From NCBI GenBank assembly GCA_951406725.2, contig OX597814.1, forward strand, positions 67,394,001 through 67,458,000: DNA of 64,000 nt, in the 5' to 3' direction. The position numbers and the translations under genes were made by a program. Numbering within the stretch: the first letter of the stretch is position 1; the number at the start of each line of letters is the position of its first letter. The notes beneath the pieces were generated by a model. It searched no databases and was not told the origin of the DNA. It saw only the letters and a list, made by a program, of their open reading frames with translations. Source of the DNA: Octopus vulgaris. Its lineage: Eukaryota. Of the stretch, positions 2,804-63,448 are shown one piece after another.

Positions 2804-2878
2804 TACTCACGAATACGATGTCAAAGGAGTTAGAGTCCCAGGCTGAGGATACAGATAACTATAAGACGGGAATACCAG
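2804..2878 (+). CDS. Micro-exon of acidic-repeat array (75 nt, phase 1-1): xLTNTMSKELESQAEDTDNYKTGIP
   Basis: Acceptor cttcctttctatttctccag, donor G|gtatgg; paralogous to exons at 35117, 36466, 36720. Confidence 0.75.
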
Positions 2879-3189
2879 GTATGGATACATCCCATCCGCA
2901 CACAAATACACTCCATACACCACACACACACAGCCAAGTATACACATTCACACATGTAAATGCGCATTTGAATATGAATGCCTTTCTACGGTTGTACTGT
3001 TTTCTTAAAACCGCTCGACTTTGGAACTGTCTTCCATCTCAGTGTTTCCTTATCTCTGTGACCCGAACTGTTTCAAGTTTTAACTAAATTGCTTCCTTTC
3101 ATCGCTAATTTCACCATGTTCACACTCCCTTACACTAAGTGTACATTTGGGACATTCTGATTAAAAAAAAAAGTGTGTGCATCTATAAT

Positions 3190-3555
3190 CTATATACTTA
3201 TGGATAATATCACATTTTTGTGAAGACATCACACATATGATCAGCAGCTGCCCAAAACTGTTATCGAGCTATTACCTCCTGGTGCGACAAGACGTTGTCT
3301 CTAAAACAATGTACAATCGAACACGTACATTCCCATCAAAACGTCTATCAAGTTTAGACATAACAGGCTGGATATTGTTTTTCGATCAGAAAAGAAAATG
3401 TATGTACCACCATAGAGGTTCGCTGCCTTGCTCATGGGAATATCTCTTGGAAAGTCAAAGAAAACTTTTTCAGTTTCCATGAGTAAATGCGTGAGTGACA
3501 ATTTGTAAAATCAAGGGTTTTCAGAAAAAAGAAATCAGCCTAACTCGCATATGGG
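3190..3555 (+). mobile_element. R4/Dong-type (RLE) LINE 3' fragment
   Basis: EDITHMISSCPKLLSSYYLLVRQD matches the CCHC/RHD region, also seen at 42660-42740. Confidence 0.6.
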
Positions 3556-4277
3556 AAATCCGTTGAAATTGGTATATATATATGGTCAACATACACACAC
3601 ACATACACGAACGTACTCCTTATCTCTGTGACCCGAACTGTTTCAAGTTTTAACTAAATTGCTTCCTTTCAGAAAACTATGCATTACATTTCTCAAGTTC
3701 AAAATGTGAATTTGCTTTTGTTATATGTATTCCAACAATGGTGTTTTGGATCTTTGTAAGATAGCAGATTCTTCATGTCATATATAAACATATATGCATC
3801 TCTTATTATAAAAGGCAGATTTTATCTGCCTCCCTTTGTCACTTATAGAAATCTACAATATAGGATTTCTTCAATTACAATTTACCTAGCATTTTTAAGA
3901 GTAGAATGCATCGGGTCATGCCAGGTCCAGTTTTTAAAATTTAAACTCCAATTAAGCAAAATTTACAGAAAAGTCACATTCTGGTGTGTATGTCAAATGC
4001 TTTTCTTAGTCTGGTTTACAGCACACGCAAACGCACACACACAGTGTACAACGAATAAAGTGAAACTAGATGTAATATTTGTTTCTGTCTATCACGCTGA
4101 TAGATACATGAGTAAAATGTATGGCAAGCTAAGAGATAAGAGTGAGTGAAATTGTTCTTGGAAGAGAGTAAATAGCGACAGAGTGATTTGAGGAAGACTA
4201 AACTGAAAGTATGAAACAGTGTTTATGTATAAACAGACGACACTTATATATAGTTATTAATAAATGTATGCATCCGT

Positions 4278-59700: not shown

Positions 59701-62700
59701 AGCATCAGTAACACCCCCACCACCCCGCCCTGTCCCTAGCCACATTCAGATGGCTGATCTCCCTTACGTTATATATATATATATATATATATATATACAT
59801 GTAGATATGTGTGTATGAGAGTGTATATATATATACGCAGATACGCGTATGGGTATACGTATATAAGTATGCGGGCCTATACAATAATGCATATACACAT
59901 ATATATGTATATGTGTGCGCGCGCGTGTATATTTATATACACATCTTTCTTTCTCTCTCTCTCTCTGATTCATTCGCCTCCACTATCACTAACTAGTACA
60001 ATAAATACCCACGTCTATTTTTAGAAACTTGACCATTATATCCTTCTCTCCCATTTATAGGTTTACTTCTCGCTTTGGTACACCCCGTACCATTTTCTTT
60101 ACATATCTCCCCACCTTAGTGCCTTTCAAACATATCACTCCACCTCTCACTTCTCACACATATTCCTTCCTTAAATTCTTATCTCTTCCTTCTATCCCTC
60201 CCCTATTCCTTTTATCCTGATAGCTCTCCTCTCCCATCCTCTCACAATATCTTGACCACCATCTAGCACTCCTTTAAAAAAATTTTTCTTCCTCTTTCTT
60301 TCTTTCTTTCTTTCTTTCTTTCTCTCTTCTTTCCTCCCCTATCCTTTTGACAAGTACCATTCTCCTCGTAACATACATATCTATTCTCTTCTGTTTATCT
60401 ACTTAACCCTACCAGTACATTCTCAAAATGTCATTCACACCACAAGACCCTTTTGAATGAACAACACAAGTAATTCATATCTCCATACTATCTACTTGTA
60501 ATAACAAAATATGAACTCCTATCGGAATCGACATAGCATGGACAAGAAGCATTTATACCCATCCTACACAGCGCTTTTCTTGGATGATGGAACTTCAACT
60601 GTAACATCCTACATATATTTTTACTCTTATTATTATTCTCTTATTTTCCTTTATACTTCCTGTAGCCATCCATTTCCAAAATAGCTCCTTATATAACTCT
60701 ACTATTTCCCTCTAGTTAAGTATCTTATATAATTTCTGATGAAGGGATGTCCCTAATATCAGCTGTAAAACTACCTTTCTCTTTGTAAATGTCCTATAAA
60801 TTCCACACAGCCTTGGTTTTGTTCTCATTTTATTTGAAACACACACACACACACACACACACACACACACACACACACACACACACATAGGTATTATATA
60901 TTCTGTTAAGAATAGAATAGTAGAGTACAGTATGAAGCTCGTACATTTTCAGATTTCAATATGTGCCAATCAGTAGTAATAAAGCTCGTCTACCTTCAGA
61001 TTTCACCCTGTGTTAGTCAATATATATATATATGTGCGCGCGCGTGTGTGTGTGTGTGCATGTGTGTGTGTGTGTGCATGTGTGCGTGCGTGCGTGTGCG
61101 TGTGCTTGTGCGCGTGTGCGTGCGTGTGTATCTATGTGTCTGTGTGTGCTTATATATGCATATGTATGTGTGTATATGTATATATATATATATATATATA
61201 TATGTGTGTGTGTGTGTGTGTGTGTAGTAAGGTTACCATAGGTTTCATGTTAAAAATATATCTTAGTTTTTCAAGCCGATCCCATGGAGAAATTGGTGTT
61301 CGTCTCCATTTTGGATTAAAATATGAAAAAACACAGGAAATCACGATTAAGTCTCACGAGAGATTTTGGTAAACAAAAACAAGGAATGAAGGAAAATAAA
61401 TCTTGGGTAACAATTTTTGGGTGATTATTTCCATCGGGTTTAAGTTTAGGAAAAAAATTGTGCTGAATCATGTTTCTTTGTTATGTGATATCCTGCTATG
61501 GGTAATATTATTATGTTTGTGTACTAGGGGAGTGTACTGAGGGAGCTCAGCATATGTCTTCTACGTGCATGGTTCATATGATGTATATATTAAATATTCA
61601 CGTTCAGAGGAAAAACCTATCCTGGTAGGATTGCCGTGTGGGTTCCTCTTTGAAATGTCGGAGTTTAAAATATTGCCTATGTATGCAGCGAGAGAAGGTT
61701 TCATCCCAAATATTTAAGATGTTACCTTTTGATTGGATGGTGTTTAGCTTTTCAGTAATGGAAAGCTCACATTTGGTACCCCGTCCCATTTATTTTCTGG
61801 CTTTAGCATTAACGCTACCTGTTATTTGGGACTTGCTTACTCTACCTTCTTTCAATGTCCATATCATGTTGGATAAGGATGTCGCGTCTTTTATTTTTGT
61901 CCCTAAAGGACGCCGATTGCTGTGTGTATCTTTCCTTGGATGAGCTGCCCCTCATTCCGATGTCTTTGTAACTCCGTTGGAAGCCATGATTTTCTTGATA
62001 GCTGTTATTTAGAAGGCAGCAGTACGGAGATCTAAATTAGCAGTGTCTTTCAGGTGTATTTTTGGTGGAATTATCTTTATTGTGGTTGAGTATTATCGAC
62101 CCTATATTAGGGAGGCAACTATAAATAACTGTGAAAATTGAATGGTTAAAGAAAATAGAAGATAAGCCCAAATGTAAATTTATCCAATTTGACACAGTGG
62201 AGTTTTAACCCTCCATCTCTAAAACTTTGCTTCAAAAGGCACTTGAAATTAGTAAAGCATATGTTACCATAACAAACATTGATATGGGTATTATTATGAA
62301 CGCAAATCCTTACATATTCACGATAATTCCTATTGGGTTAAAAACAATGGGAATAAGCTATTTGATGTTGCAATGACGGTGTAGAGTTAGCTGATATTGT
62401 AGACCTCTGTAGATAGAAATAAAAAAAAACCAACATAAGATTATATAGGGACAATGTCCTGGGAAGGGTATACAATAAAAACGGACATGATATGAATAGG
62501 ATACGAAAAAAATTGTGCAAGATATTTAGCCGATTTGATCTAAAAACCATAATAGGTAAATACCTTAAAGAAGTCAATTTTCTAGATAATAACATGAACT
62601 TTAGCATAAACACAAAGCAATGACTGAAACCAGTACAAAATAAAAGAAAAATACATACGTTAAGACCGTCAATGAAACATACATACATGCATACACACAT

Positions 62701-63394
62701 GATATACATGTCTACATAGATATATGAATAAAATAAATAGATAGATATATATTCATTTATTTACACAATATCACCGGTTTTGATGATGAATCTCATCTTA
62801 TCAAATATTAGTAAAAATTTATAAAAATTTGAAGTAAAAACAGTTTATATTCTGTTCGGGGGCCAAAAACATGTCTGGAGTTTTTTTTCGTTGAAGTCTT
62901 TAAATAAAGATTGGTATAGACTTGAAAGCGTTAGAGAGAAAGAAAGTGGGTATAGTTGGCTATTGTTTTGTAGTTATCTATTGCCTATTGTACTTGGTCA
63001 GAAATAAATCTGCATTACTTGAATTTTCCTAACCTCAAAGGTCTTATTGTTTCACTGATATGGTACATTGTCACAATCTTTCCAGAAAAATCTTGCGTTA
63101 AGACCGTCAATGAAACATTTACTCACATATCCGTGAGCTCTAATAATTATCTGTAAAAATGTGAATTTTCATGTAGGCTAAAAAAGCTGTTGGTTCTGAA
63201 GTAATTACATGTAAATATTCACACTTTCACTGGTTTTGGAAAAGATATTCACATCCATAGAATATCGGTGCATAATAAGTATTCGTAATTTTTGCATTGT
63301 CCCAATTATTTCCTGAGAATAGTTTAAATATGCAATAATTGAATAATAATAAAGGTTTAAATAATATTTGCAAAATTTGAACGGTATTTTATAG

Positions 63395-63448
63395 AAGTGC
63401 TGATATCTGAAAACGAGATGGCACAGAATTTAGAAGAGGATGCTCCAG
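63395..63448 (+). CDS. Duplicate of micro-exon 9481-9534
   Basis: Identical sequence and splice sites. Confidence 0.55.

What the first reader, a model, noticed from the sequence alone, without database searches (positions are those of the whole stretch)
2804..63448. Hidden array of paralogous, symmetric phase-1 micro-exons encoding ~26-aa acidic modules
Seen: plus-strand units at 2804, 9481, 13665, 30003, 33414, 35117, 36466, 36720, 45428, 48787 and 52409, plus duplicates at 56715 and 63395. Intact units have a pyrimidine tract plus AG, a length divisible by 3 (54/75/78 nt) and a phase-1 GT donor, mostly ...CCA G|GTATG. They translate to diverged variants of EFEENxIPEELESEAEETxNLELETP and splice together without stops in any combination. 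Several are invisible in the ORF track. Inference: one large gene (or gene cluster) built by repeated exon duplication, encoding a low-complexity acidic repeat protein or a cassette of freely combinable or mutually exclusive exons. I do not recognise the protein family and found no convincing first or last exon.
Basis: partly seen in the sequence, partly recalled or inferred. Interest (0 to 1): 0.9.

Follow-up and report, generated by a model that had tools for sequence, protein, structure and literature searches.

The report
Octopus acid-repeat gene of fifty exons
These short pieces are real spliced exons of what is likely one poorly annotated 250-kb octopus gene that stacks about fifty copies of an acidic 26-residue unit between a predicted signal peptide and a predicted basic tail, probably making a secreted, strongly negative gel or cement protein with no relative found in the databases.

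Summary
Confirmed and much larger than reported. The genome is Octopus vulgaris. Ten of the 13 units are intact symmetric phase-1 exons; 33414 and 45428 are relics and 52409 is doubtful. The family has 62 copies (51 intact), all in one locus on C1, so it is no transposon. The phase-1 frame is under purifying selection (pN/pS 0.37). One RNA-like run holds module-to-module splice joints, including 35194^36466. Outside the window I found two unique exons that give a signal-peptide-like start and a last exon with a basic tail behind an RKR site. The model is an open 1,402-aa protein: a 34% Glu, net -441 body and a +13 tail. These end exons are not RNA-tested. Public annotation has only two 'hypothetical' fragments; no homologue, family or paper was found. 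Neighbouring modules are joined in series, so they are not mutually exclusive; skipping is untested. Likely function: a secreted polyanionic gel or cement protein (egg-string or spermatophore glands are leads). Main rival: a giant acidic propeptide for a cationic defence peptide. The tissue is unknown.

The parts
1..1 (+). Edge marker: the gene comes in from upstream. Outside the window lie the candidate first coding exon (G000:C1:67261589-67261622, 34 nt, ATG and first half of a predicted signal peptide), the candidate second exon (C1:67278196-67278228, 33 nt) and 34 intact module exons plus four defective copies (C1:67285214-67392582)
   Evidence: both signal exons match once in the genome; not RNA-tested
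2804..2878 (+). intact module exon, 75 nt (duplicate copy A)
   Evidence: in public model P0001
9481..9534 (+). intact module exon, 54 nt (copy A)
13665..13742 (+). intact neutral-class module exon, 78 nt (copy of the exon at C1:67481350)
18705..18782 (-). inverted copy of a relic exon (donor lost; C1:67468031), inside an inverted segment; cannot be spliced into the + transcript
19399..19476 (-). inverted copy of the exon at C1:67467334
30003..30080 (+). intact neutral-class module exon, 78 nt (copy of the exon at C1:67488891)
   Evidence: loose end of 29 contigs of run X1 continues into the start of the exon at C1:67495090, 21 of 24 letters
33401..33410 (.). junction between duplicate copies A (ends 33410) and B (starts 33401)
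33410..33469 (+). truncated module (no acceptor, donor intact); intact copy at C1:67373487
   Evidence: X1 contigs carry the intact start joined to a module end
35117..35194 (+). intact acidic module exon, 78 nt
   Evidence: joint 35194^36466 GT..AG in X1
36466..36543 (+). intact acidic module exon, 78 nt
36720..36797 (+). intact acidic module exon, 78 nt
   Evidence: joints from about 36540 into 36719-36722 in X1, 17 contigs in the best row
45428..45478 (+). relic module: acceptor GG, shortened
48787..48861 (+). intact module exon, 75 nt
52409..52487 (+). doubtful module: 79 nt (frame-shifting) or 75 nt by a weaker donor
56715..56789 (+). intact module exon, 75 nt (copy B)
63395..63448 (+). 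intact module exon, 54 nt (copy B)
64000..64000 (+). Edge marker: the gene runs on downstream. Outside the window lie 7 further intact module exons and two relics (C1:67467334-67499349), a 36-nt exon with the first Cys (C1:67501927-67501962) and the candidate last coding exon (C1:67511010-67511269): open for 85 codons to TAA, RKR site, 75-residue basic tail (net +13, pI 11.2, one Cys)
   Evidence: last exon matches once in the genome; not RNA-tested

Best explanation
The units are spliced, frame-preserving exons of what is likely a single 250-kb octopus gene, predicted to encode a secreted, unfolded, Glu-rich polyanion of about 1,200-1,400 residues with a short basic tail, which most likely works as a charge-driven gel or cement protein of an exocrine gland. 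Shown: one locus, 51 intact symmetric phase-1 exons, selection on the reading frame, module-to-module splicing in one run. Predicted: the signal peptide, the basic last exon, their presence on one transcript, and disorder. Inferred: the polyanion binds water and cations and is cross-linked through its own basic tail or a basic partner, perhaps also by the two cysteines near the C-terminus; the RKR site may release or unmask the tail. Chain length and charge grow by exon duplication, which phase symmetry makes harmless, and may be tuned by exon skipping. Reproductive accessory glands (egg-string cement, spermatophore gels) are the leading candidate sites, on indirect grounds only.
For: All 40 DNA matches and all 22 protein matches lie in C1:67.29-67.48 Mb. 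51 of 56 catalogued copies are intact and give no junction stop; the 55-exon model is open for 1,402 aa. pN/pS 0.37, bootstrap 0.23-0.58, against 0.84 and 1.29 in the other sense frames. Run X1 holds the GT..AG joint 35194^36466, joints into 36720, and loose ends that continue into the next module; the DNA-like run X2 has contigs that run through the same exon-intron borders. The only hydrophobic stretch is at residues 5-16 (mean KD 3.05; best elsewhere 0.62), so no membrane anchor; charge and hydropathy (0.338, 0.371) fall far on the disordered side. The acidic modules hold no dibasic site before residue 976 and no Cys, so they are not a string of peptides. The body's charge (-441) is about 34 times the tail's (+13); spider-venom propeptides that balance charge are 6-30 aa (PMC6832493, passages). 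O. vulgaris oviducal central-gland granules stain as non-sulfated carboxylated polyanion and the egg coat is stable only at pH 5.5-9 (PMC13336147, section 21 and passages), as a carboxylate/basic complex would be.
Against: No tissue, protein or function data. Splicing rests on one run whose RNA nature is a guess and whose organism differs from the assembly; joints were counted at 85% likeness with sides of 21-33 letters, so paralogues may be mixed. Four copies (two of 77 nt, two of 79 nt) keep good splice sites but shift the frame. The stop-avoidance test alone is not significant (P 0.067). The gland polyanion is described as mucopolysaccharide, and as sulfonated in older work (PMC8976471, passages). 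The layout signal - acidic region - RKR - Gln-led cationic peptide is also the textbook layout of defence-peptide precursors.
Confidence: 0.45

Rival explanations
1. A prepro-peptide: the acidic exons are an overgrown propiece that shields and packages one cationic 75-residue antimicrobial or venom-gland peptide, released at the RKR site.
For: Signal, acidic region, dibasic site, then a Gln-led tail with pI 11.2 and two amphipathic windows (moment 0.59 and 0.70); the same order as spider AMP precursors (PMC6832493). One Cys on each side of the site could tether the tail.
Against: The propiece is 17 times the tail's length and 34 times its charge, is under purifying selection and is still expanding. 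The tail has five more dibasic sites and matches no family or structure.
Confidence: 0.25
2. A calcium-binding biomineral matrix protein, for example of the statolith, working like acidic disordered otolith or shell proteins.
For: Secreted-type, disordered, 39% Asp+Glu. Acidic repeat proteins with a basic end are common in molluscan shell and fish otolith matrices (recalled).
Against: Glu rather than Asp dominates (34% to 4.5%), with few S-x-E sites (11 in 51 modules). No homologue among molluscan proteins. Octopus mineralises little (recalled).
Confidence: 0.15
3. The end exons do not belong: the modules form an intracellular spacer or spring (titin-PEVK-like) or an acidic chaperone with a basic nuclear signal, or two or more separate genes.
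For: The end exons are unproven by RNA. Module length (26 aa) is near the 28-residue PEVK repeat (PMC5424795, passages). Public annotation splits the chain into two genes.
Against: No Ig, fibronectin or other host domain among 150 of 450 flanking ORFs scanned. All exons chain in phase 1 from a unique signal-like start to a stop. A loose end bridges 94891 to 101090. The two public models use odd frames at their ends.
Confidence: 0.12
4. A decaying local repeat or transposon fragment with chance splice sites.
For: Flanks are duplicated with the exons; several copies are broken; the region is rich in LINEs.
Against: One locus only, selection on one frame, six of eight length classes multiples of three, splice joints.
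Confidence: 0.03

Closest known systems
Schistosoma micro-exon genes (MEGs) (10.1101/2023.06.21.545858, passages)
   Same: Secreted orphan proteins from many short exons (up to 81 bp, mostly multiples of three) in long introns, hard for gene finders; here 91% of the coding length is in exons of 81 nt or less
   Different: MEGs have 10-20 mostly 15-bp exons, introns up to 5 kb and proteins up to 189 aa, only in schistosomes; here 51 paralogous 54-117 nt exons, introns to 16.6 kb, 1,402 aa, and alternative splicing not shown
Prepro-antimicrobial and venom peptides with acidic propieces (spider AMPs, PMC6832493; frog dermaseptin-type, recalled)
   Same: Signal, acidic region, dibasic site, cationic C-terminal peptide
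   Different: Propieces are about 6-30 aa and roughly balance the charge; here 1,306 aa and -441 against +13; no spacers releasing many peptides; no sequence likeness
Titin PEVK region (PMC5424795; its one-exon-per-repeat layout is recalled)
   Same: Disordered Glu-rich repeats of 26-28 residues, built of small symmetric exons
   Different: Titin is intracellular, Pro/Lys-rich and flanked by Ig domains; here 6% Pro, 3% Lys, no such domains, predicted signal peptide
Secreted repeat proteins grown by exon duplication: Xenopus integumentary mucin FIM-B.1, caseins and acidic SCPPs, otolith OMM-64 (all recalled, not tested)
   Same: Exocrine or matrix proteins, disordered, acidic, lengthened by repeated units
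   Different: No sequence relation found; no Ser/Thr-Pro mucin core or Cys-rich ends; caseins use phase-0 exons (recalled)
Public models CAI9715271.1 and CAI9715272.1, 'Hypothetical predicted protein', Octopus vulgaris
   Same: Made of exons of this very chain
   Different: 238 and 113 aa fragments; no signal peptide, none of the 30 most upstream intact modules, last exons read in other frames

Membership tests
Schistosome MEG family | most coding sequence in short symmetric exons (up to 81 bp) | tested here: met
   91% of 4,209 coding nt
Schistosome MEG family | N-terminal signal peptide | tested here: inconclusive
   hydrophobic core at residues 5-16 from two unique exons; no predictor or RNA test
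Schistosome MEG family | variant proteins by skipping of central exons | tested here: inconclusive
   skip-like joints in X1 cannot be told from paralogue mixing
Schistosome MEG family | schistosome gene, short protein, MEG motifs | tested here: not met
   octopus, 1,402 aa, no match
Acidic-propiece antimicrobial/venom peptide precursor | signal - acidic propiece - dibasic site - cationic peptide | tested here: met
   (model; ends not RNA-tested)
Acidic-propiece antimicrobial/venom peptide precursor | short propiece that about balances the peptide's charge | tested here: not met
   1,306 aa, -441 against +13; 6-30 aa in PMC6832493
Acidic-propiece antimicrobial/venom peptide precursor | cleavage and lytic activity of the mature peptide | not testable with these tools
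   needs proteomics and assay
Titin/PEVK | PEVK composition and flanking Ig/Fn3 domains | tested here: not met
   Pro 6%, Val 3.4%, Lys 3%; no Pfam hit above cut-off; none in 150 of 450 flanking ORFs
Gel-forming mucin | Pro/Thr/Ser-rich core and Cys-rich VWD/CK ends | tested here: not met
   Thr 9.6%, Ser 4.6%, Pro 6%; two Cys in all
Acidic biomineral matrix protein | secreted, disordered, very acidic | tested here: met
   (secretion and disorder predicted only)
Acidic biomineral matrix protein | found in a mineral, or controls CaCO3 growth | not testable with these tools
   no tissue or protein data
Dispersed transposon or SINE | copies across the genome on both strands, no frame selection | tested here: not met
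   the same kind of search gave 2,976 candidates for a true repeat nearby

The most novel reading that the evidence does not exclude
An octopus-specific, gene-encoded 'polyglutamate': a 160-kDa secreted polyanion with a built-in cationic sticker, whose length is set by exon copy number and skipping, and which is the so-far unidentified carboxylated component of the pH-switched egg-string cement, or the swelling agent that drives the osmotic spermatophore discharge, as poly-gamma-glutamate drives Hydra nematocysts (PMC5424795; PMC13336147; PMC6712556).
Probability: 0.2. Interest if true: 0.8.

Novelty: new variant of a known kind. Interest (0 to 1): 0.55.

Why it matters
It recovers a large octopus gene that public annotation holds only as two broken hypothetical fragments, with a protein that has no detectable relative. 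The layout (a very long acidic body and a short basic tail, built by exon copying that is still going on) gives a concrete, testable candidate for octopus secretions known only from histochemistry, such as the underwater egg cement, or else a new cationic defence peptide. It is also a clean natural case of protein growth by symmetric-exon duplication, from single exons to a 54-kb block.

Tried and rejected
No listed holder is on record as RNA: not used as evidence. Runs X5 and X14 gave next to no cover on the module exons: contigs show presence, not absence, so this is no proof of tissue specificity. Summed contig depth in X1 (about 8e4-2.6e5 in four exon bins against under 1e3 in most others) is not taken as an expression level. 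Only 4 of 24 listed runs were laid, on one stretch. A 60-nt exon-like piece at -114949 that looked like the rest of the signal peptide is a high-copy repeat: rejected. A weak profile hit at -338551 has no matching donor or module: rejected. Homologue searches found only the two O. vulgaris models: (only the top ~8,000 candidates scored); Pfam, PDB sequences, Atlas (31 best score 0.79; 51 none), metagenomes (90). Structure prediction of the tail was queued and never returned. The bacterial promoter scan was irrelevant. Literature: no paper holds any of four peptide motifs or the two accessions; topic searches listed nothing on this gene (listings and abstract starts seen); the cephalopod venom preprint (abstract, passages) is about another family. 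Six short motifs were absent from the supplements of salivary-gland (PMC7693380, PMC11525497), skin-mucus (PMC10138644) and ink (PMC10142993) papers (supplements only, long files may be cut, and their databases may lack the gene), and five from those of the O. maya oviducal-gland paper (27,000 characters only). BioRxiv supplements were closed, and subscription papers were not searched. No other cephalopod genome was on hand, so cross-species conservation is untested.
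Full report
Coordinates are window coordinates; places outside the window are the C1 position minus 67,394,000 (the window is G000:C1:67394001-67458000).

1. Observation. All 13 units are present. Ten are intact exons with AG and GT ends, 54, 75 or 78 nt long, phase 1 at both ends. 33414 is the last 60 nt of an exon whose intact copy lies at -20513; a duplication junction removed its acceptor. 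45428 has lost its AG; 52409 is 79 nt, or 75 nt by a weaker donor. 13665 and 30003 are related but nearly neutral. Two inverted copies at 18705-18782 and 19399-19476 were missed.

2. Extent. A genome-wide DNA search with one exon and its flanks gave 40 matches, all in C1:67.29-67.45 Mb; a protein search gave 22, all in the same locus. An iterated DNA profile found 56 hits in 464 kb and none in the reversed control; splice-site scans added more diverged copies downstream. I catalogued 56 plus-strand copies by hand: 51 intact (34 upstream, 10 in the window, 7 downstream), two of 77 nt, two of 79 nt and one with a dead donor (its start is 74031). Left out of that count were four further relics (33414, 45428, its copy at -8479, about 80106) and the two inverted copies: 62 copies in all.

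3. Selection. Of 28 acidic 78-nt exons, 15 are distinct. Among these pN/pS is 0.37 (codon bootstrap 0.23-0.58; corrected dN/dS 0.27) in the phase-1 frame, 0.84 and 1.29 in the other sense frames and 0.51 in the mirrored antisense frame. Pairs are not independent, so the size is rough. Stops: 0 of 15 in frame, 15 of 15 and 13 of 15 out of frame; an expected-stops test alone gives only P 0.067. Exons are 77% alike, aligned flanks 69% and 61%. Six of eight length classes are multiples of three.

4. Splicing. Four of 24 listed runs were laid on 29900-47800 at 85% likeness. Run X1 (RNA by the tool's guess, with letter differences from this assembly) has a joint that skips 1,271 nt with GT..AG ends, which is 35194^36466 (1 contig, 21 letters on the short side), joints from about 36540 into 36719-36722 (17 contigs in the best row), a module end joined to the intact start of the 33414 exon (61 contigs; that string is not contiguous in the DNA), a module start after 33469 (41 contigs), and after 30080 the start of exon 101090 at 21 of 24 letters (29 contigs). 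X2 has contigs running through the exon-intron borders instead. So modules are spliced to modules on both sides, which speaks against a mutually exclusive cassette. Because paralogues are so alike and sides are short, a joint proves module-to-module splicing, not always the exact pair; skip-like joints (33469 to 36467, 35194 to 36725) cannot be read as alternative splicing.

5. Identity. A profile of 16 modules found one protein, CAI9715271.1, 'Hypothetical predicted protein', Octopus vulgaris; a full HMMER search with it found only itself and CAI9715272.1. Both are made of exons of this chain. Nothing usable in Pfam, PDB, the Atlas or metagenomes.

6. Ends of the gene. Following the second public model led to a 36-nt exon at 107927 and an acceptor at 117010. 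Read in phase 1, the latter is open for 85 codons to TAA (chance about 0.013), where the public model stops after 5; it is unique in the genome. Upstream, a 34-nt exon at -132411 with an ATG and a 33-nt exon at -115804, both with GTAAGT donors and both unique, give a 21-residue start with a Lys, a hydrophobic core and small residues at -3 and -1. They were picked from several candidates for that look, so they remain predictions; one rival piece was a repeat. The 55-exon model spans 249.7 kb and is open for 1,402 aa (1,204 without duplicate copy A), 163 kDa, pI 4.05: signal; 1,306 residues with 34% Glu and net -441; an RKR site; a 75-residue tail that starts with Gln, net +13, pI 11.2. There are two Cys, one on each side of the site. 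Nearest recognised neighbours are a FUN14 ORF at -179 kb and a GPCR at +236 kb, among LINEs (150 of 450 ORFs scanned).

7. The duplication. -20504..33410 repeats 33401..98298 in rearranged form: 34,175 nt direct (8 mismatches), a 213-nt piece holding exon 13665, 8,951 nt inverted (9), 10,649 nt direct (0), with a few extra bases at the junctions. It lies inside the gene and adds 8 intact exons in frame. So few mismatches point to a very recent event or an assembly error; undecided.

8. How it likely works. Shown: locus, exon layout, selection, splicing. Predicted: secretion and disorder (charge 0.338 and hydropathy 0.371 per residue against a boundary of 0.535; no membrane segment). Inferred: since the acidic part has no cut sites before residue 976, far outweighs the tail and keeps growing under selection, it is probably the working bulk: a polyanion that holds water and cations and sets through its basic tail or a basic partner. 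Published histochemistry offers a place for such a protein: carboxylated, non-sulfated granules in the oviducal central gland and an egg coat stable only at pH 5.5-9 (PMC13336147); spermatophore discharge is osmotic (PMC6712556, passages). These are leads; the tissue is unknown. I give this 0.45, a giant propiece for a cationic peptide 0.25, a mineral-matrix protein 0.15, an intracellular or split gene 0.12, a dead repeat 0.03. The gene structure itself I hold at about 0.9, the signal-to-tail model at about 0.75.

9. Known systems. It is built like schistosome MEGs, ordered like acidic-propiece peptide precursors and has PEVK-sized repeats, but fails a defining feature of each. FIM-B.1, caseins and OMM-64 are recalled parallels, not tested. 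An earlier scan note on a shark gene of tandem 96-nt exons is a parallel in layout only.

10. Novelty. No description was found in ten full-text searches or five sets of supplements; subscription papers and bioRxiv supplements were out of reach. The way of building is known, the protein family is not: new variant of a known kind, interest 0.55.

Noticed in passing
window 5224-6339 and 59136-60252: A 263-nt perfect inverted repeat with arms 590 nt apart and a partly palindromic middle: looks like a fold-back or MITE-type element in an intron.
   Followed up: no
window 1-64000 and beyond (C1:67373496-67492298): Complex duplication with an inversion, deletions and a 213-nt inserted piece that keeps one exon in forward orientation; 17 mismatches in about 53.8 kb. 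Real recent event or assembly error.
   Followed up: partly
L019:107-183, L018:9126-9202, L011:8504-8582, window 52409-52487: Module copies of 77 and 79 nt keep good splice sites but would shift the frame; they must be skipped or spliced at another donor.
   Followed up: partly
L017 to L014 (C1:67.33-67.36 Mb): Five near-identical pairs of modules, from repeated tandem duplications of a few kb: expansion is recent.
   Followed up: partly
L034:7090-7167: Run X1 differs at 3 of the first 24 letters of this exon, changing 2 of 8 residues: the neutral-class modules may evolve fast.
   Followed up: no
L028:760-1200 (+): FUN14-family match within one ORF (E 2.8e-22), a gene or retrocopy 47 kb before the predicted start.
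   Followed up: no
L048:2393-3397 (-): Rhodopsin-family GPCR ORF, 335 aa.
   Followed up: no
L026 to L024: Three tandem 5.9-kb LINE copies just upstream of the predicted first exon.
   Followed up: no
L036:3295: A family-type splice donor 26 nt after the stop codon suggests a further 3' UTR exon.
   Followed up: no
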